Source of the DNA: Candidatus Omnitrophota bacterium
GTDB lineage: Bacteria > Omnitrophota > Gorgyraeia > Zapsychrales > Fredricksoniimonadaceae
Assembly (NCBI GenBank): GCA_044225175.1
Contig: JBGAJA010000002.1
Location: forward strand, 280,991-344,990
Reading direction: 5' to 3'
Length of the DNA: 64,000 nucleotides
Shown here: piece after piece, positions 36,901-64,000 of the stretch
How the letters are laid out: each line of letters opens with the position of its first letter
How positions within the stretch are numbered: position 1 is the first letter of the stretch
Made by a program: the position numbers and the translations under genes
Notes under the pieces: generated by a model
Databases searched by the model: none
Told to the model about the DNA's origin: nothing
Seen by the model: only the letters and a program-made list of their open reading frames with translations

Positions 36901-37079
36901 ACATAGGTGTTTTAAAGAAGCAGCTAGAACTCGCTCAAAAAGAAACTGCACAAGCCAGAGCAACGGCCAGAGATAAAAATAAACAAGCTAAAGAATTAAA
37001 TGACCAAATCGTCATTCTCCACAAACAAATCCAAGAGCTTCAAAAGAACATCGATTCCTTACGAAATATTTCAAAATAA
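33981..37079 (+). CDS. Large secreted coiled-coil protein (1032 aa)
   Basis: The protein has a signal peptide (MKKTFHICLSTLFLLSTIPSQIWA). Almost all of it is Q/E/K-rich heptad-repeat sequence. Confidence 0.75.
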   Translation: MKKTFHICLSTLFLLSTIPSQIWAAPVIDAPPIYVRVVDLNNQVTELKRDVLNQERVNRDEEIAARELAQENALLIRKIEESQKNALHNAPTSDLFTTIDTMKQLKEVMEDYGRKLDNRNQTMIARNEEISSLRARIDKLEHLFDEVIKLYNNTQAMKNPPLAQEIPANSLVASLEEQKEELLSKNKFLSEKYKQLMEYKQELANTKDQLRKLQAEKIQPPLAVVVQKEPGVNNNEEIQDYKQQLADAKDQINKLQREKTQSPLAVAVVEKEAKANNKQETLMYKQQLADAKDQVTQLQSEHKDLLESVDQLKSQIKKIRDMQSSLEEKDQRLGQMNEMMFQKDRQIAELKNDLSQANENLNKAKAEIALKDNTIKGQQAALSKQQQTLANLQQEVLDVRANIKKVQSNYSEDQGGFERIRQNIVALKSKLNEAQGRAALASTQEVEMIKLKGDIAALTYQLQNAQEDLVEYKNTVAQQKKIVAEQKTLIDQQKAAIEEHKAIIEQERVIIEKEKQTIHEHKNAIDLLNSQSLQKEQGLKDKDVKIEGLNLLVRSQDQDLKNKELQMAQIEQQKVQEISTYKNMVGNLKENLQSLIQQINALKDDVANSFNIQAQMKERVGLQDILLSKYRVLEDLASQKCELLMQLAIKFKDRREYYKDQLKKTVVYWQDLNSQSEGQMEGLKKEISSKQEQLDEIQKQFEANKAKSAQLEGMLDVYQKKIDEGDVQAKEKTKQIDQLQGDLQTALDAVDQRQKDIVKVRDYFYELEKKSSEKSKELREKNQELALLNASLEGKKESISQLNARLASIEAKLKTSIDSSALDQHKEQMTALQEKLTVAEEKLKTTVDQAELNQTKEFLKSSTDEMTELKNSLKDKEMQIEQIKKDNVDNVSLQKSLSEAKEKITKLMEDSYYKDKQIQRLNMLVSQKDKTKNKDAKIKELTKQIDERNQQISSLKQQIENLQKPTPMTKEDRDIGVLKKQLELAQKETAQARATARDKNKQAKELNDQIVILHKQIQELQKNIDSLRNISK
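34575..34960 (+). repeat. Three tandem units of about 126-129 nt (about 43 aa) inside the coiled-coil gene
   Basis: Units start at 34575, 34701 and 34830 with tataaacag(g/c)aattagc. They encode YKQ(E/Q)LA(N/D)(T/A)KDQ...LQ..K.Q.PLAV.VV.KE. Confidence 0.6.
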
Positions 37080-50765: not shown

Positions 50766-51834
50766 AGACAAAACAGTATTTGTGGCTATGTCAGGCGGAG
50801 TTGATTCTTCCGTTGTGGCAGGATTAATTAAAGAGGCTGGCTACAAGACCGTTGGTGTTACCATGTGCTTTAATATCACCCACAGTGATGGGAAAGCTTC
50901 CTGTTGTGGGATTGAAGGCATTGCGGATGCTAAGCGTGCTGCAGAAATCATCGGTATTCCCCATTACGTCTTTAATTTTGCGGCTGATATTAATGACTTT
51001 ATCATCGATAACTTCGTCGATGAGTACTTAAAAGGCCGCACCCCGAACCCTTGTGTGCGCTGCAATCAACATCTCAAATTTGGAACTCTCTACGATAAAG
51101 TTAAATCCTTAGGTGCGGATTATATTGCAACGGGACATTATGGAATCATTGACCGCAATGACGGGCAGTATGAGCTAAAGAAATCCGTCGATGAACGTAA
51201 GGACCAGTCTTATTTTCTTTACAGTATGAAAAAAGAAACTCTGCCGTCTGTTCTTTTTCCTTTAGGAGGATTAACTAAAGGAGAGGTACGTGATTTAGCA
51301 CGTAAATTCCATCTTAATACGGCAGACAAACCCGAAAGCCAAGACATTTGTTTTGTACCAGCTGCCGGGTATAAAAAATTTATTGAAGATCGCGTGGGAA
51401 AAGAAGTGATGGTTCCAGGAGATTTTATGGATGAGAATGGAAAGGTCGTAGGTCAACACAAGGGAATTGCTAATTATACGATTGGTCAGCGGGATAAATT
51501 GGGGATTGCCTTAGGTTATCCTGTGTATGTTTATAAGATTGATTCTCAAACCAACACTGTTCATGTAGGGAATCTTGAAAAACTCTATTCCAAAGGATTA
51601 GTGGCTTCCCAGGCCAATTGGGTGAGCATGGAAATTCCCAAAGAAAGCATAGAAGTATGGGCAAGAATTCGTTATAATTCTCCTGAAGTTAAAGCCAAAC
51701 TTACAGCGACGGATGAGAACACAATTCGGCTTGATTTTTATGAGCCGCAAAAATCCGTCACACCAGGACAGTCAGTCGTTTTTTATAAAGACGATGTGGT
51801 TTTAGGTGGAGCAATTATAGAGAATTCTATTTAA
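50752..51834 (+). CDS. mnmA: tRNA 2-thiouridine(34) synthase MnmA
   Basis: The PP-loop is VAMSGGVDSS. The ATG at 50752 overlaps the last codons of bioA. The ORF-track start at 50728 is probably upstream of the true start. Confidence 0.88.
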   Translation: MEQNKDKTVFVAMSGGVDSSVVAGLIKEAGYKTVGVTMCFNITHSDGKASCCGIEGIADAKRAAEIIGIPHYVFNFAADINDFIIDNFVDEYLKGRTPNPCVRCNQHLKFGTLYDKVKSLGADYIATGHYGIIDRNDGQYELKKSVDERKDQSYFLYSMKKETLPSVLFPLGGLTKGEVRDLARKFHLNTADKPESQDICFVPAAGYKKFIEDRVGKEVMVPGDFMDENGKVVGQHKGIANYTIGQRDKLGIALGYPVYVYKIDSQTNTVHVGNLEKLYSKGLVASQANWVSMEIPKESIEVWARIRYNSPEVKAKLTATDENTIRLDFYEPQKSVTPGQSVVFYKDDVVLGGAIIENSI

Positions 51835-51849
51835 TCCGAGGATAAACCT

Positions 51850-52494
51850 ATGTTAAGAATTTTTTCCATGCTCGTTGTTTTGATGTTAGTGTCCAGCCTT
51901 GTCTTTGCTCAAGCAGTAAATCCAGCCCGCGAATATGAACGAAGAAGAAATTCTGAAGCCCCTGCCGATGGCGTTTGGTATGTCTATGATCGTGAAGGAA
52001 ATCTTTCCAAAGAAGAACATTACAAAACATATCGTTTAGATGGTGAAGTTAAAAGTTTTTATAAAAGTGGTGCTATTAAAGCTATTACTCCTTATGTGGA
52101 TGGTTTTCGTGAAGGTTTAGAGAGAACATATTTTGAAAAGGGCGGTTTAATGGGTGAGAATACTTACTCCAGAAATAATCTCAATGGAACAAGCCATCAA
52201 TATTACGACGACGGTTCTCTTCAGCAAGAATCAAATTACCTTAATGGCCAGCTCAACGGCGTTACAAAGATTTATTATAGAAATGGAAATTTAAAACAAG
52301 TTTGGAACTACAAGCTTGGTGTGATTAATGGGACAGTCCTTAATTATGGTGAGGATGGACAAATTAAATCAGAAGATATTTATTCCAAAGGCGAAATAGC
52401 TTCCCATAAAGATTATGTGAATGATGTTTCTACGCTTGTAGCTGGTGAAAAAGCTCCAGCACCAGCAAGTAAGACCCCTGCCGCTAAACCATAA
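51850..52494 (+). CDS. MORN-repeat protein with a signal peptide
   Basis: The signal peptide is MLRIFSMLVVLMLVSSLVFA. Repeated YxDGxLxxExxYxNGxxxG (MORN variant) units follow. Confidence 0.7.
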   Translation: MLRIFSMLVVLMLVSSLVFAQAVNPAREYERRRNSEAPADGVWYVYDREGNLSKEEHYKTYRLDGEVKSFYKSGAIKAITPYVDGFREGLERTYFEKGGLMGENTYSRNNLNGTSHQYYDDGSLQQESNYLNGQLNGVTKIYYRNGNLKQVWNYKLGVINGTVLNYGEDGQIKSEDIYSKGEIASHKDYVNDVSTLVAGEKAPAPASKTPAAKP

Positions 52495-52512
52495 TAGATA
52501 GAAAGCCGCGCC

Positions 52513-53781
52513 ATGATTTCTTTAAACACGGATTATCTCAAAGGCTTCGTTAATAACGAAGACATTCAAAAAACTTTACCTGAAATTAAAACTGCCCACG
52601 AGGCTTTGCATTCGGGAACCGGCAAGGGTTCTGAATTTACTGGCTGGCTGGATTTGCCCTCTCGCATCTCTGATGATTTGATCAAAGAACTTCAAACATT
52701 GGCCCAGGATGTTCAGAGAGATTGCGATTGTTTGGTTTCCATCGGTATCGGTGGTTCGTATTTAGGGATTCGTGCGACGGTGGAATTTTTAGGTGGGAGC
52801 AAACTTCCTATTTATTATGCTGGGCATAATATCAGCAGCGACTATTTGCATGGACTTTTGGAAACGCTTAAAGATAAACGACCTGCGGTTGTTGTGATTT
52901 CCAAGTCAGGTACAACGACGGAACCTGCCATCGCTTTTCGTGCCATTAAAAAATTATTAGAATCAAAATATACACCTGTAGAATTAAAGAAACGTATCAT
53001 TTGTGTGACGGATGAAAAGAAAGGTGCTTTGCGCCAAATCGTCAACAAGAACGGCTATCGTTCATTTGTGATTCCTGATGATGTGGGCGGACGGTTTTCT
53101 ATTTTGACGCCAGTTGGTTTGGTTCCTTTAGCTTTAGCTGGTGTCGATATCAAATCTTTAGTTGATGGGGCTAAAAAGGCCCAAGCTGAATACGCTCAAA
53201 TGGATTTAGAGAAGAATAATTGTTATCGCTATGCCGCCATCCGTAATGTTCTTTATCGCAAGGCCAAGAAGATTGAAGTGGTTTCCTCATTTTATCCGCA
53301 AGTGCAGTTTGTAGCCGAATGGTTTAAGCAATTGTTTGGTGAGAGTGAAGGTAAGGATGGGAAAGGGATTTTTCCTGCATCCATGATTTTCTCGACGGAC
53401 CTACACTCTATGGGGCAACAAATGCAAGACGGAGAACGTAATATCTTTGAAACATTTATTGCCATTGATAAACCAGCGCACGATGTCATTGTTCCTCATG
53501 ATGAAGATGATTTAGATGGTTTTAATTATGTGGCGGGAAAGACATTTGACTTCGTCAACAAAAAGGCTTATGAAGCAACGTCAGCGGCACACTTTGAAGG
53601 TGGTGTTCCTAATATGACACTCACCTTGTGTAAGGCAGATGCCTTTCATCTAGGTCATTTATTTTTCTTCTATGAGAAGGCGGTTGCAATCTCGGGGTAT
53701 GTCTTGGATGTAAATCCCTTTGATCAGCCGGGTGTTGAAGCCTACAAGAAAAAAATGTTTGCCCTTCTTGGCAAAAAATAA
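52513..53781 (+). CDS. pgi: Glucose-6-phosphate isomerase
   Basis: SIGIGGSYLG and GGRFSILTPVGLVPLALAG are PGI signature blocks. The length is 422 aa. Confidence 0.9.
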   Translation: MISLNTDYLKGFVNNEDIQKTLPEIKTAHEALHSGTGKGSEFTGWLDLPSRISDDLIKELQTLAQDVQRDCDCLVSIGIGGSYLGIRATVEFLGGSKLPIYYAGHNISSDYLHGLLETLKDKRPAVVVISKSGTTTEPAIAFRAIKKLLESKYTPVELKKRIICVTDEKKGALRQIVNKNGYRSFVIPDDVGGRFSILTPVGLVPLALAGVDIKSLVDGAKKAQAEYAQMDLEKNNCYRYAAIRNVLYRKAKKIEVVSSFYPQVQFVAEWFKQLFGESEGKDGKGIFPASMIFSTDLHSMGQQMQDGERNIFETFIAIDKPAHDVIVPHDEDDLDGFNYVAGKTFDFVNKKAYEATSAAHFEGGVPNMTLTLCKADAFHLGHLFFFYEKAVAISGYVLDVNPFDQPGVEAYKKKMFALLGKK

Positions 53782-53784
53782 TTT

Positions 53785-55407
53785 ATGCCTTCGGTCATTG
53801 AAGTCCGTAATCTTAAGAAAACCTTCCGATCTCGCAGGGAAATCATTGAGGCTATTAAAGACACCGATTTAGACGTGGAACAAGGAGAAGTTCTTGGGAT
53901 CCTTGGTCCCAATGGTGCAGGAAAAACCACATTTCTAAACACTCTTTCTACCCTTCTTTTGCCTGATAGTGGTTCCATTAAGATCCTGGGAATCGAATCC
54001 ACCCCTAGAAATTTCTCTTCCATCCGCAGACTCATCAATATGTCTTCGGGTTATCCTAACTATGCGTTTAGTCTAACTGTGAAAGAGAATCTGGAATTCT
54101 ACGGCAGGCTTTATGGATTAATGGGTAAGCCTCTTGAGAAAAAGATCGATGAGGTGATGGAGCTCTTTTTATTGACGACATATGCCAATCGCAGGTTTGA
54201 TGAATTATCCTCGGGGACTAAGCAGCGTTTATCTTTGGCCAAATCATTGCTGAATGATCCAAAGATTCTTTTCTTAGATGAGCCTACGATTGGATTAGAT
54301 CCAGATGTAGCCATTCAAACGAGGGAAGTCGTTAAACGCATCCTTAAAGAACGCCAAATGACTGTCCTTTTTACCAGCCACAATATGGCTGAGATTGAAG
54401 AAATGTGTGAACGTGTGGCGTTTATTCAAAAAGGGACGATTGTAAAGCTTGCGGCTATAGATGAGCTCAAGCGCCTACATAAAACCGACAATTTAGAGCA
54501 AGTCTTCATTCAACTCTCCCGAGAGACCCAAACTACCCAAATTAAACAAAAAGGTGCCCAAAAAGGTGTCAGACACCTTTTTGAAGAATCGCAACCTCAA
54601 AAAAGGTGTCAGACACCTTTTTCACTATCCCAGTGGTTCAATCGTTGCTATGCCTTTACATTTCGCAGTTGTATATTTGCCATCCGCAATCTCTTTGTCA
54701 TGACAGATGTTTTTTTCTGGCCCATGATCAGTTTGATTTCTATGGGGCTTATGTTTAAGTTTGTCCATCTTGAAAATCATGTGCTGGAATTTGTCATGAC
54801 AGGAACTTTAGCTGCAGGTGTCCTGCAAATTGTCCAGTTGGATGTAGGCTATACGATTCTTTATGAGCTGTGGTCCAAAAGTCTTAAGCACACCATGTTA
54901 ACTCCAGTTGGAACAACCGAAGGGGTGGTTGGAACTTTGCTTTCTGGTATATTTCGTGGAACTATTAGTTTTATTATTCTAGCCATTGCAGCAGTTTGGT
55001 GGTTTGGCTTTGAACTTCCGCCTTTTGGGGTAACGCTGGCATTTTTATTAGGAATTTTTGGATGCGCTTTAATTTTGGGAATTATTGTAAACATTCTCAT
55101 TTTATCTTTTGGCCAAAAAGTCGAAATCACCGCTTGGATGTTTGCCCATTTATTCCTCATTTTATGCGGAATTTATTACCCCATAGATGTTTTGCCAGAC
55201 GTTTTCCAAAAAATAGCATTAGTGGTTCCAATTACCCACTTTTTAGAGTATTTTAGGCAATATTATGGATTTAAAGCCCACACAAACAATCCATTGATAT
55301 ATGGATATGGTTTAACAATGATTTACATTTTTGTCTTTTTACACTTCCTTTCCCAATCCTACATTCGCGCCCGCCAAAAAGGCATCATCATCCGCCTTTC
55401 GGAATAA
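53785..55407 (+). CDS. ABC-2 type exporter with the ATP-binding domain fused to a 6-TM permease domain
   Basis: Walker A GPNGAGKTT is present. The ABC signature is LSSGTKQRLSLA. Walker B is ILFLDEP. Six hydrophobic helices of ABC-2 type follow. Two palindromic elements lie exactly at the domain junction. Confidence 0.85.
   Translation: MPSVIEVRNLKKTFRSRREIIEAIKDTDLDVEQGEVLGILGPNGAGKTTFLNTLSTLLLPDSGSIKILGIESTPRNFSSIRRLINMSSGYPNYAFSLTVKENLEFYGRLYGLMGKPLEKKIDEVMELFLLTTYANRRFDELSSGTKQRLSLAKSLLNDPKILFLDEPTIGLDPDVAIQTREVVKRILKERQMTVLFTSHNMAEIEEMCERVAFIQKGTIVKLAAIDELKRLHKTDNLEQVFIQLSRETQTTQIKQKGAQKGVRHLFEESQPQKRCQTPFSLSQWFNRCYAFTFRSCIFAIRNLFVMTDVFFWPMISLISMGLMFKFVHLENHVLEFVMTGTLAAGVLQIVQLDVGYTILYELWSKSLKHTMLTPVGTTEGVVGTLLSGIFRGTISFIILAIAAVWWFGFELPPFGVTLAFLLGIFGCALILGIIVNILILSFGQKVEITAWMFAHLFLILCGIYYPIDVLPDVFQKIALVVPITHFLEYFRQYYGFKAHTNNPLIYGYGLTMIYIFVFLHFLSQSYIRARQKGIIIRLSE
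54560..54582. repeat. 23-bp palindromic element, copy 2: aaaaaggtgtcagacaccttttt
   Basis: It lies in the ABC gene linker and is read as K-G-V-R-H-L-F. Confidence 0.85.
54600..54622. repeat. 23-bp palindromic element, copy 3: aaaaaggtgtcagacaccttttt
   Basis: It lies 40 nt after copy 2 and is read in a different frame as K-R-C-Q-T-P-F. Confidence 0.85.
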
Positions 55408-55563
55408 TCCAATAAAAAATAGGGTGAACTCACATTTTTAGAAGAAACAGGAAGTTGCCCCTATTTTTGAGAAAGCGTTATCTCAAAGAGGGGTTCTAAG
55501 CCTTGTTTTCGTCAACTTTAGGTGTAATACTTTAGGTATATTAATAAGCAGTATATAAAGTAT

Positions 55564-58500
55564 ATGAGAACCCCCATATCTATCCTAACTTTGATGTGTT
55601 TCTTTTTCACAAGCATATGTGGCCCTATGCCTGTGAATGCCCAGGAAATTCATTTAACAAAACCTGGGGTAATGGTCCATTTAAGCACTCCTGTAACCCC
55701 ACCTCTACTCAAAGGAATCAAGGTCCATCCAGACAACCCATTTAGGTTCGATTTTATCCTGGATACAGGGTCACGTTCCGTCGATGATGCACATAAATTG
55801 AAGGAAGAGTCCAACCGACTAATCAAGTACTTTTTAGCCTCTTTAACCATTCCCGAAGCGGACCTTTGGGTGAACCTAAGCCCCTATGAAAAAAACCGCA
55901 TTGTCCCCGAAAGCTTTGGCCAAACCGAGATGGGACGTGACCTATTAGCCCAGGACTACATGCTAAAGCAGATCACAGCCAGCCTTATGTACCCAGAAGA
56001 TGAGATAGGAAAGAGATTCTGGAGAAGAATCTATGAAGAATCAGCCAAAAGGTATGGAACAACCAACATTCCAGTCAACACATTCAACAAGGTATGGATA
56101 GTCCCCGAGAAAGCCGTAGTCTATGAGAATGCAAAGGCCGGAACAGCCTATGTAGTGGAATCCAGGCTGAAAGTGATGTTAGAAGAAGACTACGTAGCCT
56201 CCAAAAAGGTGTCAGACACCTTTTTGAAGGGGCAGAGTGATAAAAAGGTGTCTGACACCATTTTGCACAGTCAGATCATACGGGAGGTTGTTATTCCTGA
56301 ATTGACCAAAGAAATCAATGAAGGATCCAATTTTGTGCAGCTTAGGCAGGTTTATAGTTCCTTGATTTTAGCTACTTGGTACAAGAAGAAGATCAAGGAT
56401 TCACTATTGGCGCAGGTGTATGCGGATAAGAATAAGGTCATGGGTCTTGGGTATATGGGAGGCGGATCGGAACAGATTTACCAACGATACCTCCAAGCTT
56501 TTAAAAAAGGCGTTTATAACTACATCAAAGAAGAACCCGATCCCATAACCCAACAATCTGTCCCTCGAAAATATTTCTCTGGTGGAATGGCATTTGATCA
56601 TGCCATGAATGTAACGATTAAATATACGGGTGAAATTGCAGGTCCAATTAATTCTGCCATGCAAGTGACTGTTGATATGTCAATAGCAAATCATGTAGAG
56701 TTAGAGCATTCTACCGACCAAGCTATGAGCGCAGTCCTCCATCAAAGCGATTTGCCCAGGCTATATTGGGGAAATATTGTTCAGCGTTTAATCTTTTCTT
56801 TAGTGGATCGCTTTAGAACCGGCGAGAACATTCAAAGAGAGGATCTTGTTACATCCGCACAGGCGCTCACACAACAATTTACCCCTGAAGCTACTGCTTC
56901 TGAAAAGCAATTATTCGAAGATGTTATGAAAGGGGCAGATCTAAAAGGGTTAGGTAAGACAAGGTTAAATGTCGCTACCATTATGGCTGCTTTTATTGCT
57001 CAACAAGCTATTGGGGCAGATACAGATTCTCAAGAATTCACTAATGTTTATCTGCCAAGAGATATGGGCTTAGGATACACCATTGAAAAAACGTTAGCAT
57101 CATTAAAAGATGAGACAAGAGAACCTGGCATATATTATCTTAGTCGAGATAGTTTGGAAGAAGGAGTTTATTCAAGAGTCAGCAACATTATTGAGAATGT
57201 AAAAGCCAAACAAAAATTAATTAATGCCTTAGCAGAGACTCCTAAAGAGCGAAGACGGATATTTATTCAATACGTAGGTCGAGAGATCATGGAAGATGAT
57301 CTTTGCAGACCAGCCGCAAAAAGGATTCTTAAAGAATTAAAAGAGTTGGGCATTATTAAGAACAACGCCAAATTAAGATTCGTGGATACAGGATATAAAA
57401 CTTTTCCTATCATGCTTCAAGCCATCATCGCTGCAGCGAGTGAATTAGATGCTTTTCATATTCAAACGGAAGGCCTCGTCATTAACAGTTCCATTGAAGC
57501 TTATCTTGATCAAATTGATCCTAAGAAGTGGGACGCGCCATCTCAAAGACTTGCTTCATTCAATCCTTTTTCAAAATTAGCAAGACCGGGAATTTTGGGA
57601 TTTATGGAGGATGACAATGCCTTACCTCACCCATTTCGGTTTAGCAAAACTCATAAAGGAATGGTTGCAACAGACGCCAAAACACAAAGAGAAGCGTACG
57701 CAACTCAGATTATGTTTGGTTTTGGTGCGATTGAATATCAGAGGTTAATTGATGAATTAGCTAAAAATTTGCTCGCTCAAGGGGTTTCAAAATTAGATTC
57801 TAAAGAGATATCTCAAGAATTAATTGCCCAGTTGGTAGGCCTCACTAAAGCAGACCAGAGTGATGATTATGTGCGAGAGCTAGATATAAAAACCGACCTA
57901 TATTTTACTGAGTTCAAAACAGTCTTTGCAGGTCGTATGAATTCAATGCAAAACAACATTCATGACGTCTATGGTTATAAGGATTTTAAAATAAAAGAAA
58001 TGAACCCGGATATTTTATCAACTATCCTGAAAATATCAGAAGAGAAATACAAGATAGATGTCAGTTTTCACAGATCGATTAAAGAATTTTATCCAAGAAA
58101 AGAACACATGAATTTTCTAAGTGCTAATTTTAAAATAAAAAACGAATTAATTTTCGATACAATCTCACAATTTAAAAAGGCTCCACATGAATCAAAACTA
58201 AAATCTTTGCTTTTTTATTTTAAAAAATTTGGAAAATTAATTAATACTCCAAGAAATCTTTTCAAAGACTCACAAGAAAAAGAAGATACTGACCCTGCCA
58301 TGAAATCCTCTAAAACCATAAAAAATGGAATCATCGGCGCAATTGCAGCAGCTATTACAAGTAGTTTGAGCGGTTGTTATACATCTGAGGCGGGGAAGAA
58401 TTATCAAAATACCTTGGAACGTAGAAAAGAAGTCATTCCCGCCAAAGAGGGAGACCACACTCCCTTATCAAGTGCAATTTGGGATTCATCTATTGAAAGA

Positions 58501-60237
58501 ACAGATGATGGACACAGTTCAGAAAAAATAAGAACTGCGCAAAGACCTATCGAAGAAAAAATATCTGACAAAGCGCAAATACCACCAGACTACGCCGCCC
58601 AAGGTATAAATAACCGAAGAATTTTAACAAATTTCTTTAGACAATTTCCCCAAGGAGCAAAGGGTTTGGATGAGGAAGTGGCATCCAGATTTGATCACCT
58701 TCCTCCAGAAGCCCTCCAGGCAGGATTGGAAGTACTAAAAGAACTTCTGGGAGAGGAAGGGCTTAGCGAACTTTTCTCAACAAAACAAGGTTTTTATACT
58801 GGCGGAATTTCGTTTATGTATCTATTTATAAAAGAACCGACAGAACTTAAAGAGTCATTGCTCACGGTGAAAGCAGGATTGAAACAATATAGATACAAAG
58901 GAATAAATCTAGTCAGTGAGCTTATCAACATCTTGAACCTATCTAGTAAATCGAGACTAAACGAAAAGATTCAGAAGCTCGAGATGATCTGGCCTGGCGT
59001 TGCTAACGAAAGTGTGGTTAAAGATCCATTAATATTTTTTAATGAATTAAAAGATATAAACTTGGATGATTTAGATAAGGTTGAAGCGCTCGAATTGAAG
59101 TATCCAGGAATCAAAGCAATTATGAGAAAGTTTATAAAGGACCATACAGATTTCTTTCCTGAAGCTCTCAATAGATTGGTTAATGATGTTTTAAAAGACC
59201 ATGATTCGCAGTTGACAGAAGCGTTCTTAAGCCTGGACGTTGATAAAATCAAAATGATTGTAAAGGCCAAGATGCCTGAAGCCCATCAGAGAGTCATGGA
59301 TTTTGAAAGAAAATATTCCAAATGGAAAGATATGGAAGATTCAAGCCTCAAACATTCTTTGATGGTACAAGCCATTATGGATGCATTTGTCGTCACGCTG
59401 CATAATTTCTTTGAAGCAGATATTCCAGCCATGCCTGCTGAGATCATGGCAGAGACATATCTCTTAATTTTGGGATATTCAAAATTGGGAAATTTGACTA
59501 CTTCAAAGTTTGAAATTAATCCGAATGACTTGGGCGGAGGTTTCCAATGGAAAAGTACCATGACACATGAGATATGGCACCATTTCATTAGTCCTTATTT
59601 AAAGGCAGGAGGTAGAGCTTCCTTTAAAGAAGCAGCCATGAGTGAATTAGGTGCAGATTTAAGCTGGTTGGCTTTATACCAAATCATGAATGAGCAGGCG
59701 CCAATTGTGGAAGCAATCAAGTCTTTCTTGAAATATGACGAGTCATTGAAGTTCATTGAAGAACGTTGGCCATTTTTGAATTATCATGGCGTAGGACGGG
59801 GAGCTCTGACTGCGCTTATCAAAGCCATTGAGAAACAAAAAGGTAAAGTTGATTATGTGGCATTATTGAAATCATACATGAATTACATTCAAGCCAATGG
59901 TCACAATTCCCGCGTAGGAGTGTTCATTCAACATGCATCAATACAATTAGGTCTTCACGAAGACCCCTATTTAAGAAGAATTGCTAAGCAAGCCGATCAG
60001 ATGGACCGTGCTATGAAGGCTGAAACTGTGGGTGGTATTGATTTGACCGTGGGCAATTTGAACTTGCAAACACAAAGCTCTAATGGTGAAATATCATTCA
60101 AAATTGATCCAGCTATGTTAGAACAATTGCAAAATGCTTCTGGTTTTTCACCTGTGATCATTCAAATGCAGCCGCTGACTGATGTAAAGGGATTTTTAGG
60201 AATGAAAGACAGAGAAAAGGAAACGATCAGCGTATGA
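55564..60237 (+). CDS. Very large secreted protein P1 (1557 aa) of unknown function, with a signal peptide, a conserved N-terminal domain shared with P2, and an HEIWH motif near the C-terminus
   Basis: The signal-peptide-like N-terminus is MRTPISILTLMCFFFTSICGPMPVNA. The N-terminal roughly 330 aa are homologous to the next gene. TMTHEIWHH is an HExxH motif. Two palindromic elements are embedded in the gene. Confidence 0.75.
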   Translation: MRTPISILTLMCFFFTSICGPMPVNAQEIHLTKPGVMVHLSTPVTPPLLKGIKVHPDNPFRFDFILDTGSRSVDDAHKLKEESNRLIKYFLASLTIPEADLWVNLSPYEKNRIVPESFGQTEMGRDLLAQDYMLKQITASLMYPEDEIGKRFWRRIYEESAKRYGTTNIPVNTFNKVWIVPEKAVVYENAKAGTAYVVESRLKVMLEEDYVASKKVSDTFLKGQSDKKVSDTILHSQIIREVVIPELTKEINEGSNFVQLRQVYSSLILATWYKKKIKDSLLAQVYADKNKVMGLGYMGGGSEQIYQRYLQAFKKGVYNYIKEEPDPITQQSVPRKYFSGGMAFDHAMNVTIKYTGEIAGPINSAMQVTVDMSIANHVELEHSTDQAMSAVLHQSDLPRLYWGNIVQRLIFSLVDRFRTGENIQREDLVTSAQALTQQFTPEATASEKQLFEDVMKGADLKGLGKTRLNVATIMAAFIAQQAIGADTDSQEFTNVYLPRDMGLGYTIEKTLASLKDETREPGIYYLSRDSLEEGVYSRVSNIIENVKAKQKLINALAETPKERRRIFIQYVGREIMEDDLCRPAAKRILKELKELGIIKNNAKLRFVDTGYKTFPIMLQAIIAAASELDAFHIQTEGLVINSSIEAYLDQIDPKKWDAPSQRLASFNPFSKLARPGILGFMEDDNALPHPFRFSKTHKGMVATDAKTQREAYATQIMFGFGAIEYQRLIDELAKNLLAQGVSKLDSKEISQELIAQLVGLTKADQSDDYVRELDIKTDLYFTEFKTVFAGRMNSMQNNIHDVYGYKDFKIKEMNPDILSTILKISEEKYKIDVSFHRSIKEFYPRKEHMNFLSANFKIKNELIFDTISQFKKAPHESKLKSLLFYFKKFGKLINTPRNLFKDSQEKEDTDPAMKSSKTIKNGIIGAIAAAITSSLSGCYTSEAGKNYQNTLERRKEVIPAKEGDHTPLSSAIWDSSIERTDDGHSSEKIRTAQRPIEEKISDKAQIPPDYAAQGINNRRILTNFFRQFPQGAKGLDEEVASRFDHLPPEALQAGLEVLKELLGEEGLSELFSTKQGFYTGGISFMYLFIKEPTELKESLLTVKAGLKQYRYKGINLVSELINILNLSSKSRLNEKIQKLEMIWPGVANESVVKDPLIFFNELKDINLDDLDKVEALELKYPGIKAIMRKFIKDHTDFFPEALNRLVNDVLKDHDSQLTEAFLSLDVDKIKMIVKAKMPEAHQRVMDFERKYSKWKDMEDSSLKHSLMVQAIMDAFVVTLHNFFEADIPAMPAEIMAETYLLILGYSKLGNLTTSKFEINPNDLGGGFQWKSTMTHEIWHHFISPYLKAGGRASFKEAAMSELGADLSWLALYQIMNEQAPIVEAIKSFLKYDESLKFIEERWPFLNYHGVGRGALTALIKAIEKQKGKVDYVALLKSYMNYIQANGHNSRVGVFIQHASIQLGLHEDPYLRRIAKQADQMDRAMKAETVGGIDLTVGNLNLQTQSSNGEISFKIDPAMLEQLQNASGFSPVIIQMQPLTDVKGFLGMKDREKETISV
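56203..56225. repeat. 23-bp palindromic element, copy 4: aaaaaggtgtcagacaccttttt
   Basis: It lies inside P1 and is read as K-K-V-S-D-T-F-L. Confidence 0.85.
56242..56264. repeat. 23-bp palindromic element, copy 5 (degenerate): aaaaaggtgtctgacaccatttt
   Basis: It lies 39 nt after copy 4, is read as K-K-V-S-D-T-I-L, and has the central T variant. Confidence 0.75.
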
Positions 60238-63200
60238 GGATTTTAAGAATACTGATCCTTATAGCATTCTTTGTTAATTGCCTGGGGCCTATGCCTGTGT
60301 CTGCCGACGTAGGGGCAGGGCTTGCCCCTGCCCAAAAAGGGCAATCGCAAGGATTGCCCCTACAGTTGCCTAAACCTGGTGTGATGGTCCATCTCAGCTC
60401 AGAATTTACCCCAGCGCATTTGAGCGGCCTTGTGATCCACCCAGAAGATCCCTTAAAGTTCGACTTTTTGATTCATCGTGGCGATGGTTCTGTGGATAAA
60501 AATGCAGAATACACCAAATTAATCAAATACTTCCTAGCTTCACTAACCGTCCCCGATGAAGACCAATGGGTAAATTTATCTCCCTATGAGAAGGATCGTA
60601 TCATTAATGAGAACTTTGGTAAAACAGAGATGGGCCGAGATCTGTTGGCCCAGGACTATCTATTAAAACAGATCACCGCTTCCATGATTTATCCGCAGGA
60701 TAAGCTAGGTGAGAAGTTCTGGAATAAGATATATCAAAGAGCCTGGGAAGAATACCACACTACAAATATTCCAGTGAATACGTTTAACAAAGTCTGGATT
60801 ATCCCCGATGAAGCAGCTGTGTATGAGTCAGGAAATACAGTCTATGTGTTAAAGAACCATTTGAAGGTGATGTTGGAAGAAGATTATTTATCGTTAAATA
60901 AACACAAAAAGGTGTCTGACACCTTTTTGACAAGCCAGATCATCCGAGAAATTATCCTGCCGGAACTAGAACGTGAAGTCAATGGGGGAGAGAATTTTGC
61001 TCCTTTACGTCAAATTTACAGCGCTATGATCTTGGCCACATGGTACAAGCGAAGCCTCAAAGAATCTTTATTAACTAAAGCCTATGCCGATAAATCCAAG
61101 ATCCAAGGCGTCAATCTGGAAGACCCAAAAGCCAATCAAGAAATCTATCAGCAGTACTTGAAGGCCTTCAAGAAAGGTGTGTTTAATTACATTAAAGAAG
61201 ATATAGACAAGTACTCCAAACAAGTGATTCCAAGGAAATACTTCTCAGGGGGTATGACTAAGGGTTATGCAGATGGAAGTATGATCAAAAGATATGATTC
61301 ACACCATGCCATGCCTGCTACATATTATCAAGATGCGGCACTATTATCTCGGCTTGATTTGGCCCAAGTGGCTTTGAATACCTCTTCTCCTGTGGGTCTC
61401 AAAAAAGACCAAGCTATGAAAGCAGCAAAAGAAGAAGAGAATTTTCTGGATAAAACAGAGGCTTTTTCGTGGGTCATTTTTAATCGCTTCACAACGGCTG
61501 GTTTCTTATTGATAGCCATGAGCCTTGGTGGATTTTTCGGCTCGCCAGCCCTCGTTTTATCTGCTGCCGGCCCTTTTTTGGGTTTAGGTATAAGTAGCGT
61601 GGTATTGATCTATAAAAAGGACTCTCAAGGTAAAAAAGACCCTTGGGGGGTTTATAAAAAAGGCAAACGTCTAAGACGTTTAAGTGTTTTTACAGGGATG
61701 GTCGGTTTATCTATCGGAGGATATTTAGCTTATAAGCCGGTCTTAGACCATGGCCAACAGTTCAATCAATTCATCAAAGTTTACAATGACCTTGCAACAG
61801 ATGAAAGAAATGGCCAGCCACATACAGGCGTTGCCCTAGATCAATTTAAAGTTTTGATCAAAAATGCCTATCAGGTCAAGATGGAACATTTTTATGACAA
61901 TTGGTGGGCAGAGACTATTCTTCGTATGGCTAGCGAGCATCCTTCCAAAAAAGTCCGTGATATTTTTGTCGAGCATATGGCCCAAACCAATTTGACGCTT
62001 TCGGGCAGACATGACCTTCAAAAAGCTTTCAGAGAAAATGTTGGTGTTAAAGAAGTCGAACGCTGGTTGATAGACCATAAAGACTATCCTATAGAGCGAT
62101 GGGAAATTTTTTCAGCTGTAGCCTATCTTTATACCGACATGATGGAAGAGCATCCTAAGCAAGCAGCTACTTTTCTTTGGGAGCTGGCTAAATACAGGGG
62201 AGACCCATTTACTCTTAAAACACTGATGAAACTTTTTCCCATCAATTATTTTGATGTCCTTCAAGAATGGTTAAATACTTTCAATGAAGAAGAGCGCTGG
62301 GACATCATATCTCTCATCATGCGTGAAGAAATGGAAAATGAAGAATTCATTGTCAAAGACACAGTATGGTCAACTCACGTGGGCAATTGGACATTTTATG
62401 AATTATTTGATGCTCTTTCACCACAAGAGAGACATCAACAATTAGACAGGCTACTGAGAGAAGGGGTTTATTTCACCCGGGACGATTTTAAACAAGGAAA
62501 CATCGACAGTTGGCAAGAGGTGACCCAAAGCTTGATTGACCATCAGTGGGCTAAAGCAGTGAATGCCGATGAGATCATAGTGACAGGCACAATGGGTCAT
62601 GAGCGAAAAGAAATGGCCGAAACTTTAGGAGAAAAGACCTATCGGAAATTGCAGAAGATTTGGAGAAAAGGATTTGGTCATTTTGGAGATGACAACTTTT
62701 ATGCCATGGTCCATAAACTAGCGATTTTTGTCTATCTTAAAGAAAAGCTTCCCCATTTGTGGGACCCGCGTGATCCCGAGGTTCTGGATTTCTGGCAAAA
62801 AGTCATGACCAATATTTCCTATGAATCGCCGCAACCGCAAGGGTCCCAAGTGCAAGATCCTCACAAGGTTGTCATCTATTTTGGCCAAGACATTCACCAA
62901 GCAATCGATGAGATAGCCACACGAATTCAGGCCAGGTACCCCGACATTACAAGCGCTAAACACGCAGCTACTGAAGGAGATGTAGATTTGGGACCTATTT
63001 CTAAGAATGATAATGCCATGTCAACGCAAGGTACAACCCAATCTCTTAGCTCCTTGAGAAGCTTAGAGGATTATTTAAAGTCCCAAGAATTTCAAGACCA
63101 CAAAGAGGTTACGAAAGCCATGGTAATTTTAAAGACATATCCCCAGACTCTCCTAGAGATTGGCGGGGGAAGCTTTGAGCGGGCAGACCAAATTGCACGG

Positions 63201-64000
63201 CATGACAGAAGAATGGGAGTGGTTTCTACAGATCAGTTTGAAGAAGATGGATACTATAGTTTTAATGAGCAGCGATGGAAAAATAGATTATTAAGGACCC
63301 AAAAAAATCCACCAGAAAATTTGGCCCTTTTAAAGGCAGATGTGAGAATGATTACAGGAAAACTGCCAAATCATTCCCTAGACTATATCCTCGTCGAAAA
63401 CCCAGATGATCCCGCATGGGTTTATATCAGAGAAAACGTTGAGATTGTTAAAAGGAAGTTGAAACCGGGCGGTGTATTAATTATGAAACCTCACTATGGT
63501 GATCACATCAAAGATTTGACTAGACTTGGATTTACACCCTGGAGAGAAGATTTAACTCCTGGAATCGATATGAACTATCGTGTTCCTGAATACGACAATA
63601 ATTTCCCCCCTATGATTTTAACAACTTCAATGACTAATAACGATAAGGCAATGGCAGTACAGAAGACAAGCCAAGCCCTTAGCACATGGAAAGGCTTAGA
63701 AGAGTATTTGGAAAGAGGCAATGTTCAAAAGGAAAACGAAGTAAGAAAAGCAATTGATCTTCTTAGTACAGGACGAAAGACCATATGGAAAATTGGTATC
63801 AAAGAACCTAGGTGGACCCAAGACATTGTGGCGAAAAGAAATCAAAATTTTAGAATGGTGGTGAGTGATGATTTCAGTCCTGAAAGAACATATAGCCAAG
63901 GAGAGTCCTATGAAAAGTGGCAGAAGGGCACTCTTACTATTCAGCAAGCTCAACCCAATGAATTAGCCATTGTTAACGCGAAAGTCCAAGAGATGCTCCC
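60234..64000 (+). CDS. Very large secreted protein P2, a paralog of P1 (3-prime partial, more than 1250 aa), with tandem methyltransferase-like modules in its C-terminal part
   Basis: The ATG overlaps the P1 stop (ATGA). The signal-peptide-like N-terminus is MRILRILILIAFFVNCLGPMPVSA. The N-terminal domain aligns with P1 (LPKPGVMVHLS...NIPVNTFNKVWIIP...). The frame stays open to the window end. LLEIGGGSFERADQIA, DYILVENPDDP and LKPGGVLIM resemble SAM-MTase motifs, and a second degenerate module follows. Confidence 0.7.
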   Translation, partial: MRILRILILIAFFVNCLGPMPVSADVGAGLAPAQKGQSQGLPLQLPKPGVMVHLSSEFTPAHLSGLVIHPEDPLKFDFLIHRGDGSVDKNAEYTKLIKYFLASLTVPDEDQWVNLSPYEKDRIINENFGKTEMGRDLLAQDYLLKQITASMIYPQDKLGEKFWNKIYQRAWEEYHTTNIPVNTFNKVWIIPDEAAVYESGNTVYVLKNHLKVMLEEDYLSLNKHKKVSDTFLTSQIIREIILPELEREVNGGENFAPLRQIYSAMILATWYKRSLKESLLTKAYADKSKIQGVNLEDPKANQEIYQQYLKAFKKGVFNYIKEDIDKYSKQVIPRKYFSGGMTKGYADGSMIKRYDSHHAMPATYYQDAALLSRLDLAQVALNTSSPVGLKKDQAMKAAKEEENFLDKTEAFSWVIFNRFTTAGFLLIAMSLGGFFGSPALVLSAAGPFLGLGISSVVLIYKKDSQGKKDPWGVYKKGKRLRRLSVFTGMVGLSIGGYLAYKPVLDHGQQFNQFIKVYNDLATDERNGQPHTGVALDQFKVLIKNAYQVKMEHFYDNWWAETILRMASEHPSKKVRDIFVEHMAQTNLTLSGRHDLQKAFRENVGVKEVERWLIDHKDYPIERWEIFSAVAYLYTDMMEEHPKQAATFLWELAKYRGDPFTLKTLMKLFPINYFDVLQEWLNTFNEEERWDIISLIMREEMENEEFIVKDTVWSTHVGNWTFYELFDALSPQERHQQLDRLLREGVYFTRDDFKQGNIDSWQEVTQSLIDHQWAKAVNADEIIVTGTMGHERKEMAETLGEKTYRKLQKIWRKGFGHFGDDNFYAMVHKLAIFVYLKEKLPHLWDPRDPEVLDFWQKVMTNISYESPQPQGSQVQDPHKVVIYFGQDIHQAIDEIATRIQARYPDITSAKHAATEGDVDLGPISKNDNAMSTQGTTQSLSSLRSLEDYLKSQEFQDHKEVTKAMVILKTYPQTLLEIGGGSFERADQIARHDRRMGVVSTDQFEEDGYYSFNEQRWKNRLLRTQKNPPENLALLKADVRMITGKLPNHSLDYILVENPDDPAWVYIRENVEIVKRKLKPGGVLIMKPHYGDHIKDLTRLGFTPWREDLTPGIDMNYRVPEYDNNFPPMILTTSMTNNDKAMAVQKTSQALSTWKGLEEYLERGNVQKENEVRKAIDLLSTGRKTIWKIGIKEPRWTQDIVAKRNQNFRMVVSDDFSPERTYSQGESYEKWQKGTLTIQQAQPNELAIVNAKVQEML
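60906..60928. repeat. 23-bp palindromic element, copy 6: aaaaaggtgtctgacaccttttt
   Basis: It lies inside P2 at the position homologous to copy 4 in P1 and is read as K-K-V-S-D-T-F-L. Confidence 0.85.

What the first reader, a model, noticed from the sequence alone, without database searches (positions are those of the whole stretch)
53785..64000. ABC exporter followed by two paralogous very large secreted proteins, a candidate export-plus-cargo module
P1 (1557 aa) and P2 (more than 1250 aa, continues beyond the window) share a roughly 330-aa N-terminal domain after cleavable-looking signal peptides. P1 has an HEIWH (HExxH) motif near its C-terminus. P2 carries tandem SAM-methyltransferase-like modules (LLEIGGGSF / DYILVENPDDP / LKPGGVLIM, repeated about every 620 nt from about 63030). 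The fused ABC-2 exporter directly upstream could export a substrate related to these proteins. I do not recognise the shared N-terminal domain.
Basis: partly seen in the sequence, partly recalled or inferred. Interest (0 to 1): 0.6.

Follow-up and report, generated by a model that had tools for sequence, protein, structure and literature searches.

The report
Omnitrophota capped modular exported-protein family
The two big genes belong to a very large protein family of Omnitrophota bacteria, not catalogued in the databases and papers I could search, whose members keep the same head and tail but swap enzyme-like middle parts; the neighbouring ABC transporter is an unrelated housekeeping gene.

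Summary
This includes the fused ABC-2 transporter, P1 (1557 aa), P2 (full length 2568 aa), the shared N-domain behind signal peptides, HEIWH in P1, and two MTase-like modules in P2.

The 'exporter plus cargo' reading fails. In about 20 related metagenome loci the ABC gene sits in a conserved housekeeping backbone: MnmA-MORN-PGI-ABC-TatC-like-HemN-like. A P1/P2-type gene follows the ABC gene in only 6 loci and is absent in at least 10. In 80 genomic loci that hold family genes, no ABC orthologue is nearby.

P1 and P2 belong to a multigene family with more than 4,400 database hits and several copies per genome. Named sources are almost all Omnitrophota.

Members share four features:
- a canonical A-x-A signal peptide;
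- a ~315-aa N-domain, 60-77% identical across members;
- a ~65-aa C-domain (GGIDL...DPAML...PVIINIQP);
- a shuffled middle holding kinases, methyltransferases, helicases, HExxH modules and others.

Modules are joined by the tetrapeptide D-x-A-M, which is 25-fold enriched. Neither cap has a Pfam or NCBIfam relative, and the N-domain has no PDB relative.

The likeliest function is that constant caps sort or anchor a Sec-exported, variable payload. That payload may be released at D-x-A-M and used on hosts or prey. This function is inferred, not shown.

The parts
53785..55407 (+). Fused ABC-2 transporter (ATPase plus 6-TM permease). It is a neighbour, not part of the system.
   Evidence: Pfam ABC_tran and ABC2_membrane; drrA-like in NCBIfam. 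It lies in a conserved MnmA-MORN-PGI-ABC-TatC-like backbone whether or not family genes are present.
55564..60237 (+). P1, 1557 aa, a complete family member: signal peptide, N-cap, cargo modules, C-cap.
   Evidence: It is identical to database protein P0001, from an NCBI contig of 793 kb.
55564..55641 (+). P1 signal peptide (aa 1-26, ...GPMPVNA|QE).
   Evidence: It fits the family consensus of K/R n-region, L/I h-region, GPxP, and A/V-x-A followed by Q/D-E/D.
55642..56586 (+). P1 conserved N-terminal cap domain (aa 27-341, ends YFSGG).
   Evidence: 50% identical to P2 and 58-73% to the members in alignment A1. No Pfam, NCBIfam or PDB relative.
56596..56607 (+). D-x-A-M junction motif (DHAM, aa 345).
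56716..58116 (+). P1 cargo module 1 (aa 385-851), starting at DQAM.
   Evidence: It is homologous to P0002 aa 741-1207 (E 8e-114), P0041 and P0003. The P0002 copy also starts at a DQAM.
58291..58377 (+). DPAM motif followed by an internal lipoprotein-signal-like segment (MKSSKTIKNGIIGAIAAAITSSLSGC).
   Evidence: Read directly from the sequence.
58378..60003 (+). P1 cargo module 2 (aa 939-1480), an orphan module with HEIWH at 59566-59580.
   Evidence: No relative in Pfam, PDB or the local sets. HExxH occurs in 33 of 120 family members against 3.4 expected.
60004..60234 (+). DRAM motif plus the conserved C-terminal cap (GGIDL...FKIDPAML...SPVIIQMQP...FLGM).
   Evidence: C-termini of the 60 members listed align, as does the consensus of 43 members. 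tblastn finds the cap downstream of the N-cap in most complete loci.
60234..64000 (+). P2, first 1255 of 2568 aa, a family member that runs off the window.
   Evidence: Full-length P0121 ends in a divergent C-cap (GGVDFNSSNLNLQIK...FIPVILEIKPVRDLPIF).
60306..61253 (+). P2 N-terminal cap domain (aa 25-340), after signal peptide 60234-60305.
61407..63008 (+). DQAM motif plus a ~530-aa module with hydrophobic segments at its start. A second copy lies at aa 1997-2490, outside the window.
   Evidence: The two copies are 24% identical, E 7e-32. Hydrophobic stretches at aa 419-460 and 483-500.
63009..63641 (+). DNAM motif plus class I SAM-methyltransferase-like module 1 (LEIGGGSF, DYILVENP, LKPGG).
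   Evidence: Methyltransf_24 at E 0.027 across the full profile. 62 relatives found, and the small ones hit Methyltransf_4 or NpmA. A profile search of PDB gives weak hits: 28 at E<=1, nearly all methyltransferases, and only one at E<0.001.
63642..64000 (+). DKAM motif plus methyltransferase-like module 2. The glycine loop is degenerate (IWKIGIKEPRW) and the module is cut by the window end.
   Evidence: It matches module 1 at E 1.8e-26. The rest is seen in P0121.

Best explanation
P1 and P2 are two members of a large family of modular proteins, found so far almost only in Omnitrophota. The family is absent from the databases and papers I could search.

Shown:
- Each member has a canonical Sec/signal-peptidase-I signal peptide.
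- Each has a strongly conserved ~315-aa N-terminal cap and a conserved ~65-aa C-terminal cap.
- The middle is hypervariable and built from interchangeable modules. These are mostly enzyme types normally found in the cytoplasm.
- Modules are joined by a peptide-level D-x-A-M motif.
- The genes are scattered through the chromosome and are gained, lost and re-cargoed at the same site. The ABC gene is backbone.

Inferred:
- The two constant caps are the sorting, anchoring or delivery parts. A common machinery or envelope structure would recognise them after Sec export.
- The variable middle is the payload.
- D-x-A-M is a processing or docking site that lets modules be released or handled one by one.
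- Many payload domains need ATP, SAM or acetyl-CoA, so they most likely act in or on another cell. That would make them an effector arsenal for the host- or prey-dependent lifestyle proposed for this phylum.
For: Family size and caps:
- More than 4,467 hits at E<=0.001 among the 8,000 candidates scored. Of the top 120 hits, 116 cover only the first 21-31% of P1, at 51-73% identity.
- The C-cap consensus is seen in the listed C-termini and in a 43-member alignment.
51 loci are labelled Omnitrophota, 28 carry the label 'uncultured Planctomycetales' and 1 is labelled Elulimicrobium. One MAG contributes at least 8 loci.

Export:
- The signal-peptide consensus is A/V-x-A followed by Q/D-E/D, four residues before LPxPG. 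A K/R n-region is present in 101 of 120 members.

Cargo diversity:
- Pkinase, HATPase_c, SNF2, methyltransferases, GNAT, MutS_V, guanylate kinase, GGDEF, PLD, HEAT, WD40, M48 and others.
- HExxH is about 10-fold enriched.

Junction motif:
- D.AM occurs 344 times against 14.0 expected, the top gapped 4-mer.
- Its codons vary and there is no upstream RNA signal.
- It is absent from non-capped relatives.
- The same module starts at DQAM in both P1 and P0002.

Variable slot:
- Six related loci carry a family gene between ABC and the TatC-like gene. The five that could be compared as ORFs share only the caps with P1/P2 and are 833 to 1743 aa long. At least 10 loci carry none.
- No recurrent neighbour gene was found.

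Cap co-variation:
- N-cap and C-cap identities co-vary, with Spearman 0.54 against a permutation maximum of 0.23.
Against: - There is no direct evidence of secretion beyond the signal peptide. No dedicated signal-peptide or topology predictor was available.
- The N-cap fold is unresolved. The AF2 model has pLDDT 64, and there is no structural match.
- The full-length model of a short member failed at pLDDT 49, so N-C contact could not be tested.
- No protease or receptor for D-x-A-M was identified, so the motif could be purely structural.
- P2 and some other members contain hydrophobic segments that could re-span the membrane. That would place the enzyme modules in the cell's own cytoplasm.
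- Several cargo modules look degenerate, for example P2 MTase copy 2, and may not be enzymes.
- The N-C co-variation can be explained by shared ancestry alone.
- The apparent restriction to Omnitrophota rests on the best 80 of at least 579 genomic matches.
Confidence: 0.5

Rival explanations
1. One reading: the fused ABC-2 transporter exports P1 and P2, or a product they make, so ABC-P1-P2 is a functional module.
For: The genes are adjacent on one strand. The ABC-P1 gap is 156 nt with no terminator-like site. A family gene follows the ABC orthologue in 6 related loci.
Against: - The ABC gene keeps its place in a housekeeping backbone, whereas the family gene is absent in at least 10 related loci. 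Where present, it has different cargo.
- 77 of 80 family loci have no ABC-like gene within 10 kb, and the other 3 hits are 24-29% identical.
- ABC-2 type, not a type I secretion ABC.
- P1 and P2 have Sec signal peptides.
Confidence: 0.03
2. Envelope-resident scaffold proteins. After Sec export the N-cap, and perhaps the C-cap, anchor the protein to the cell's own envelope or surface coat. The variable modules then serve the cell's own surface chemistry, adhesion or signalling. This would resemble SLH- or CWB2-anchored surface protein families, or be a small format of the Omnitrophota giant proteins. No delivery into other cells would be involved.
For: - One constant anchor-like domain is combined with many variable domains, in many copies per genome.
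- The domain repertoire overlaps that reported for Omnitrophota giant membrane proteins: HEAT, HATPase_c, PPDK_N, GGDEF, methyltransferase and GNAT (10.1101/2023.11.21.568195; 10.64898/2026.06.07.730766).
- Some members carry extra hydrophobic segments.
Against: - ATP-, SAM- and acetyl-CoA-dependent enzymes, SNF2 helicases and MutS-like ATPases have no obvious substrate or cofactor supply outside the cytoplasm.
- This model does not explain the D-x-A-M junction motif.
- No known anchoring domain (SLH, LysM, OmpA-like and so on) is detected in the caps.
Confidence: 0.27
3. Membrane-tethered cytoplasmic proteins. The N-terminal hydrophobic stretch is an uncleaved anchor, or internal hydrophobic hairpins return the chain to the cytoplasm. 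The enzyme modules then work inside the producer as regulatory or metabolic scaffolds.
For: The cargo is of cytoplasmic type. In P2 two homologous modules that begin with hydrophobic segments flank the methyltransferase-like part. The 2026 preprint reads many long Omnitrophota proteins as inner-membrane anchored.
Against: - The h-region is short (about 12-15 aa). It is followed by GPxP and a conserved A-x-A site, with K/R before it. That is the signature of a cleaved signal peptide oriented N-in/C-out.
- About half of the members have no further hydrophobic segment apart from the C-cap itself.
- The two P2 modules are homologous, so an odd number of spans would put homologous domains on opposite sides of the membrane.
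Confidence: 0.12
4. Polymorphic toxin system for competition between bacteria, with a conserved trafficking domain and variable toxins neutralised by immunity proteins.
For: The N-terminal part is conserved, the payload is recombining and variable, there are many copies, and genes come and go at one site.
Against: - The variable part is internal, and a conserved C-cap follows it.
- The cargo is kinases, methyltransferases, helicases and HEAT or WD40 repeats rather than nucleases, deaminases or pore formers.
- No recurrent small downstream gene that could be an immunity gene was found.
- No known trafficking domain (RHS, LXG, PT-TG, MAFB and so on) was detected.
Confidence: 0.05

Closest known systems
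MARTX (multifunctional autoprocessing RTX) toxins of Vibrio
   Same: Conserved N- and C-terminal regions flank a variable array of enzyme 'effector' modules. Modules are shuffled between strains and separated by short processing sites (from my own knowledge of the family).
   Different: - MARTX toxins have no Sec signal peptide and use a dedicated type I system (ABC, MFP, TolC).
- They carry glycine-rich RTX-type repeats and an internal cysteine protease domain that cuts after Leu.
- None of these is found here.
- The caps are unrelated in sequence.
Polymorphic toxin systems (PMC3482391)
   Same: A conserved trafficking part is joined to recombining payload cassettes, with multi-copy, locus-level variability.
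   Different: Here the payload is internal and bounded by a second conserved domain. There are no immunity genes, no known trafficking domain, and the cargo is not of toxin type.
Type IX secretion cargo with a C-terminal sorting domain (PMC10202324)
   Same: Sec signal peptide, variable functional part, and a small conserved C-terminal domain of about 70-100 aa shared by many unrelated cargo proteins in one phylum.
   Different: No match to the T9SS C-terminal domain models (NCBIfam and Pfam give no hit). T9SS is a Bacteroidota system. A large conserved N-domain is an additional feature here.
Giant 'Archaeovorin'-type and other very long proteins of Omnitrophota (10.1101/2023.11.21.568195; 10.64898/2026.06.07.730766)
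   Same: Same phylum. Overlapping repertoire of embedded domains: HEAT, HATPase_c, PPDK_N, GGDEF, methyltransferase and GNAT. Signal peptides or TM segments are frequent. Roles in interaction with other cells are suspected.
   Different: - Those proteins are 10,000 to over 100,000 aa long with many TM helices.
- Giant relatives found through the MTase module lack the N-cap, the C-cap and D-x-A-M.
- The >=9456-aa ORF in this window has one D-x-A-M, as chance predicts, and no C-cap at its end. Its N-terminus lies outside the window.
- The capped family is 750-2,650 aa long and has many copies per genome.
Anchor-plus-variable-domain surface protein families (SLH-domain proteins, CWB2 cell-wall proteins of Clostridioides)
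   Same: One conserved module is shared by dozens of paralogues that differ in their functional domains (own knowledge).
   Different: Those anchors are known repeats that bind cell-wall polymers of monoderm bacteria. No such domain is detected here, and the cargo here is of cytoplasmic enzyme type.

Membership tests
Type I secretion ABC exporter with RTX/MARTX-type cargo | ABC protein with a type I exporter membrane domain (ABC_membrane), often a C39 domain, plus adjacent MFP and TolC-like partners | tested here: not met
   The membrane part is ABC2_membrane (PF01061), fused to the ATPase. The neighbours are PGI upstream and P1 downstream, or a TatC-like gene in related loci.
Type I secretion ABC exporter with RTX/MARTX-type cargo | Cargo lacks an N-terminal signal peptide and carries RTX repeats plus a C-terminal secretion signal | tested here: not met
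   P1 and P2 have canonical A-x-A signal peptides. No RTX or HemolysinCabind hit.
ABC-2 type transporter (DrrAB/NodIJ-like) | ABC_tran ATPase plus ABC-2 permease | tested here: met
   PF00005 at E 7e-30, PF01061 at E 7e-9, drrA subfamily at E 3e-65 but below the curated cut-off. The substrate is unknown.
Sec/signal peptidase I substrates | Positively charged n-region, hydrophobic h-region of about 10-15 aa, helix breaker, small residues at -3 and -1 | tested here: met
   Consensus of 101 aligned members: -3 is A/V in 82% and -1 is A in 84%. K/R precedes the h-region in 101 of 120. No dedicated predictor such as SignalP was available.
Class I SAM-dependent methyltransferase (P2 modules) | Rossmann-fold homology with a glycine-rich motif I (E/DxGxGxG) and an acidic residue after strand 2 | tested here: inconclusive
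   - Copy 1 has LEIGGGSF.
- Methyltransf_24 at E 0.027, below the cut-off.
- Relatives of 280-330 aa hit Methyltransf_4 at up to 31.7 bits, above that model's cut-off of 24.
- The profile search of PDB gives only weak hits: 28 at E<=1, nearly all methyltransferases, best E 5e-4.
- Copy 2 lacks motif I.
- No structure model was made.
Zincin metallopeptidase (P1 HEIWH module) | HExxH in a helix plus a third zinc ligand, and homology to a peptidase family | tested here: inconclusive
   - HEIWH is present, with Glu 17 and 22 residues downstream.
- No Pfam, PDB or local homologue.
- HExxH is about 10-fold enriched in the family, and two members carry Peptidase_M48.
Polymorphic toxin systems | Known N-terminal trafficking domain, C-terminal toxin domain, and a downstream immunity gene | tested here: not met
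   No known trafficking domain. The C-terminus is a conserved cap. No recurrent downstream gene.
Type IX secretion cargo | C-terminal sorting domain matching T9SS CTD models | tested here: not met
   NCBIfam and Pfam give no hit for P1 or for its last 86 aa.
Autotransporter (type V) | C-terminal beta-barrel of about 250-300 aa | tested here: not met
   The conserved C-terminal part is only about 65 aa, and there is no Autotransporter hit.
The N/C-capped family described here (no database name) | Signal peptide, N-cap (LPxPG...WVNLSPYE...LKVMLEEDY...YFSGG), D-x-A-M junctions, C-cap (GGIDL...DPAML...PVIINIQP) | tested here: met
   P1 has all features. P2 has all of them, with a divergent C-cap in the part outside the window.

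The most novel reading that the evidence does not exclude
The capped family is a phylum-wide protein-delivery platform that has gone unrecognised. In this reading the members are Sec-exported polyprotein carriers whose constant N- and C-caps engage a common secretion or translocation route. They are cut at D-x-A-M to release many different cytoplasmic-type enzymes into or onto host or prey cells. That would make them the main effector arsenal of parasitic or predatory Omnitrophota.
Probability: 0.2. Interest if true: 0.85.

Novelty: new variant of a known kind. Interest (0 to 1): 0.62.

Why it matters
Omnitrophota are widespread, uncultivated nanobacteria thought to live on other cells. So far attention has gone to their giant genes. 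This family is far more numerous: thousands of members, several per genome.

It is built on two domains and a junction motif that have no Pfam or NCBIfam model. The N-domain also has no PDB relative.

If the caps are sorting or delivery modules, they give a simple sequence handle for listing the whole exported payload of any Omnitrophota genome. The handle is one HMM for each cap plus D-x-A-M. The motif also gives metaproteomics a concrete prediction to test, namely cleavage at D-x-A-M.

If the family turns out to be envelope-resident only, it is still a major piece of unexplained cell biology for the phylum.

For annotation, the result is a warning against reading the adjacent ABC gene as a dedicated exporter.

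Tried and rejected
1. Looking up P1 and P0008 in the contig index found nothing on record.
2. Word-index homology searches with internal parts of P2 (aa 381-1255) and P1 (aa 911-1481) returned nothing. They did not return the proteins themselves either, although both are in that collection. I treat this as a tool limitation, not as absence of relatives.
3. A scan of species-representative genomes with the end of P2 found nothing, so this genome is not a representative.
4. The AF2 model of the N-cap is only moderately confident (pLDDT 64). Foldseek against PDB gave no match at E<=0.001 and TM-scores around 0.1. The weak hits to colicin Ia, NheA and MakA are not evidence.
5. The AF2 model of a whole short member (P0068, 875 aa) failed at pLDDT 49, so docking of the C-cap on the N-cap could not be tested.
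7. I tested whether D-x-A-M is a nucleotide signal, such as an internal start with a ribosome-binding site or a recombination site. This is rejected: synonymous codons vary and there is no upstream purine-rich signal.
8. I tested whether modules generally begin with a signal- or TM-like segment after D-x-A-M. This holds only for a minority (3-5% against about 1% at random positions) and there is no overall shift (p 0.48).
9. I looked for a recurrent neighbour gene, such as a protease, secretion component or immunity gene, in 80 loci. None was found.
10. An FHA-like stretch in the off-window part of P2 has no Pfam hit.
11. Full-text searches found papers on Omnitrophota giant ORFs but no description of this capped family.

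Full report
**1. What is in the sequence**

The region holds three same-strand ORFs:
- a 540-aa ABC protein (53785-55407);
- P1 (55564-60237, 1557 aa);
- P2, whose ATG at 60234 overlaps the P1 stop (ATGA) and which runs off the window after 1255 aa.

The ABC protein is an ATPase fused to an ABC-2 type permease. It is drrA/NodI-like in NCBIfam but scores below every curated cut-off.

P1 and P2 are 50% identical over their first ~400 aa (E 2e-119) and not significantly similar elsewhere. HEIWH is at P1 aa 1335-1339.

P2 carries two ~210-aa repeats, starting at nt 63009 and 63642. The first has LEIGGGSF, DYILVENP and LKPGG. The second has lost the glycine loop.

The rest of P2 was recovered from a protein library as P0121 (2568 aa). 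Its first 1255 aa are identical to the window translation.

The window is ordinary chromosome. Upstream lie MutL, MutS, ComM-like, a YkuD transpeptidase, AccA, RlmN, an IscS-like gene, BirA, BioF/H/C/D/A, MnmA, a MORN protein and PGI.

**2. The shared domain defines a very large family with two caps**

A search with P1 gave more than 4,467 hits at E<=0.001 among the 8,000 candidates scored. Of the top 120 hits, 116 match only the first 21-31% of P1, at 51-73% identity. Lengths of the 120 range from 875 to 2646 aa. Every source name given for these proteins is Candidatus Omnitrophica.

Their precomputed Pfam content differs from protein to protein. It includes protein kinase, HATPase_c, SNF2 helicase, several methyltransferase families, GNAT, MutS_V, guanylate kinase, GGDEF, PLD, metallophosphoesterase, HEAT, WD40, PPDK_N, response regulator, M48 peptidase, glycosyltransferase and others.

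The listed members also share a ~65-aa C-terminal domain, with consensus GGIDLTPANMNLQTQNxGxEIKFHLDPAMLQQLQNAPGFVPVIINIQPMxDLxxFLGL. P1 has it at aa 1490-1550. Full-length P2 ends in a divergent version.

Neither cap matches any Pfam-A or NCBIfam model, even at E<=10 for Pfam. A profile of the N-cap finds nothing among PDB sequences.

An AF2 model of the N-cap (25 sequences) reached only pLDDT 64 and pTM 0.54. It shows a mixed alpha/beta domain and has no Foldseek match in PDB.

**3. Signal peptide**

I aligned 101 members on the invariant LPxPG. This gives a K/R-containing n-region, an L/I-rich h-region of about 12-15 aa and a GPxP breaker. Position -3 is A/V in 82% and position -1 is A in 84%, followed by Q/D-E/D-F-x-LPxPG.

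P1 (PVNA|QE) and P2 (PVSA|DV) fit this pattern. It is the textbook signature of a cleaved Sec signal peptide, but no dedicated predictor was available to score it.

**4. A junction motif**

The tetrapeptide D-x-A-M recurs at module borders. In the variable middles of 118 members it occurs 344 times against 14.0 expected. That is 24.6-fold, the most enriched gapped 4-mer; the next is N-x-A-M at 5.4-fold.

Other properties of the motif:
- There are about 2.9 copies per protein.
- The first copy lies a median of 24 aa after the end of the N-cap (YFSGG). The last lies a median of 21 aa before the C-cap (GGID).
- The flanks are not conserved.
- Synonymous codons vary (GAT/GAC; all four GCN) and there is no upstream purine-rich signal. 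The constraint therefore acts on the peptide.
- Relatives of the P2 methyltransferase module that lack the caps, including 5,000-6,900-aa giants, essentially lack the motif.

In P1 the motif is at aa 345, 385, 910 and 1481. In P2 it is at aa 392, 926, 1137, 1993 and 2494. Each P2 methyltransferase-like repeat, and each copy of a ~500-aa duplicated module, starts at one.

P1's module at aa 385-851 is homologous to aa 741-1207 of another member, P0002, and that copy also begins at DQAM. Modules therefore appear to move as cassettes together with the motif that leads them.

**5. The cargo of P1 and P2**

P2's repeats are distant class I SAM-methyltransferase-like modules:
- A full-length but sub-threshold match to Methyltransf_24.
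- 62 relatives in a 1.8-billion-protein library, of which the free-standing ~300-aa ones hit Methyltransf_4 or NpmA.
- A profile search of PDB that gives weak hits, nearly all methyltransferases: 28 at E<=1, only one below 0.001.

P1's HEIWH module has no detectable relative. HExxH in a hydrophobic context occurs in 33 of 120 members against 3.4 expected, and two members carry M48 domains. A zincin-like module is therefore plausible but unproven.

Right after DPAM at aa 910, P1 has MKSSKTIKNGIIGAIAAAITSSLSGC, which reads like a lipoprotein signal peptide. A minority of other junctions are also followed by signal- or TM-like segments, but this is not general.

**6. The ABC gene is backbone, not partner**

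Two independent tests were made.

(a) In 80 loci from species-representative genomes found through the N-cap, only 3 have an ABC-like hit within 10 kb. Those hits are 24-29% identical, and no other gene recurs next to family genes.

(b) A metagenome scan with the ABC protein found 25 loci with ABC relatives at 60-71% identity, 23 of them at 63-69%. Where flanks exist, the order is MnmA-(MORN)-PGI-ABC-c0-c1-c2-c3-c4... Here c0 looks TatC-like, c1 HemN-like, c2 like a polyprenyl synthase and c4 like adenylosuccinate lyase. I read these from the sequences and did not test them.

Between ABC and c0 the loci differ:
- A family gene is present in 6 loci: L083, L086, L087, L092, L097 and L098.
- No family gene follows ABC in at least 10. 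In L082, L084, L085, L088, L089, L090, L093, L102 and L103, c0 follows ABC directly. L094 has a different insert.
- L087 and L085 carry a further family gene, or a fragment of one, after c1.

The five inserted genes that could be compared as ORFs (all but L097) are 833 to 1743 aa long. They share only the caps with each other and with P1/P2.

The position after the ABC gene is therefore a variable slot in a housekeeping backbone. The ABC gene stays whether or not the slot is filled.

**7. How it most likely works**

Shown: Sec-type signal peptide; two conserved caps; shuffled cassettes joined by a peptide motif; many dispersed copies; turnover at a fixed site.

Inferred: the caps are the constant sorting, anchoring or delivery parts. 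The middle is the payload. D-x-A-M is a processing or docking site.

Many payload domains need ATP, SAM, acetyl-CoA or nucleic acids, yet the proteins carry export signals. The simplest reading is that they act in or on another cell. This fits the host- or prey-dependent lifestyle proposed for Omnitrophota (PMC10066038; 10.1101/2023.11.21.568195) and the T2SS/Tad-like loci reported as widespread in the phylum.

I put this at about 0.5. The main rivals are an envelope-resident scaffold (0.27) and a membrane-tethered cytoplasmic topology (0.12).

N-cap and C-cap identities co-vary (Spearman 0.54; permutation maximum 0.23). This is compatible with joint function but is also expected from shared ancestry.

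**8. Comparison with what is known**

The organisation resembles MARTX toxins: conserved ends, a shuffled effector array and inter-module processing. It also resembles polymorphic toxins and T9SS cargo with a small C-terminal sorting domain. It fails the defining features of each:
- no type I system or RTX repeats;
- no known trafficking domain or immunity gene;
- no T9SS C-terminal domain.

It shares its phylum and domain repertoire with the Omnitrophota giant proteins but is a distinct, much more numerous class. The >=9456-aa ORF in this same window has one D-x-A-M, as chance predicts, and no C-cap at its end. Its N-terminus lies outside the window, so an N-cap cannot be excluded there.

I found no description of the capped family in the searchable literature. 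That library is incomplete.

**9. Verdict**

The export-plus-cargo interpretation is not supported. The object underneath is more interesting than proposed: an apparently undescribed, phylum-scale family of exported modular proteins.

Its function is inferred only. The weakest points are the unresolved fold of the caps, the untested topology and the lack of any evidence for cleavage.

Noticed in passing
window 60-28430 (+): A giant ORF of at least 9456 aa runs off the window start. It contains Bac_transf, Glyco_transf_9, Rce1-like CAAX protease and Peptidase_M50 domains. It has only one D-x-A-M, as chance predicts, and no C-cap at its end. Its N-terminus lies outside the window, so an N-cap could not be checked. 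On the visible evidence it is a different class from P1 and P2.
   Followed up: partly
window 58300-58377 (P1 aa 913-938): Directly after the DPAM junction, P1 has an internal segment that reads like a lipoprotein signal peptide with a lipobox: MKSSKTIK-NGIIGAIAAAITSS-LSGC. A few other members have signal- or TM-like segments right after a junction motif.
   Followed up: partly
P0125, P0156, P0161; not in the window: A divergent subfamily of the N-cap exists (...FWVNLRPD...LKVMLEEDYL...). It has a different C-terminal region and no D-x-A-M motifs. The N-domain superfamily is therefore broader than the GGIDL-capped family. Its taxonomic range is unknown.
   Followed up: no
L081-L105 compared with window 50728-55407: The block MnmA-(MORN)-PGI-ABC-TatC-like-HemN-like-polyprenyl synthase-like is strongly syntenic in related metagenome contigs. 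The gap after the ABC gene, and a second gap after the HemN-like gene, are recurrent insertion slots for family genes. L094 has an unrelated ~2.9-kb insert at the same place.
   Followed up: partly
P2 aa 393-925 (window 61410-63008) and aa 1997-2490 (outside the window): P2 contains two copies of a ~500-aa module (24% identity, E 7e-32). Each begins with hydrophobic segments and each is preceded by D-x-A-M. Together they flank the methyltransferase-like part. The topological consequence is unresolved.
   Followed up: partly
L001-L080 record titles: 28 of the 80 genomic loci carry the label 'uncultured Planctomycetales' (binchicken co-assemblies). One is labelled Candidatus Elulimicrobium, which NCBI places in the Patescibacteria group. 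Either these labels are placeholders or the family reaches beyond Omnitrophota.
   Followed up: no
window 33981-37079 (+): A 1032-aa ORF whose only Pfam hit is a weak coiled-coil-type match (TMF_TATA_bd, below cut-off). It lies between mutS and a ComM-like gene.
   Followed up: no
(tool behaviour): The word-index homology search returned no hit, not even the protein itself, for internal fragments of P1 and P2. Both full proteins are in that collection. Negative results from that tool with sub-fragments should not be trusted.
   Followed up: partly
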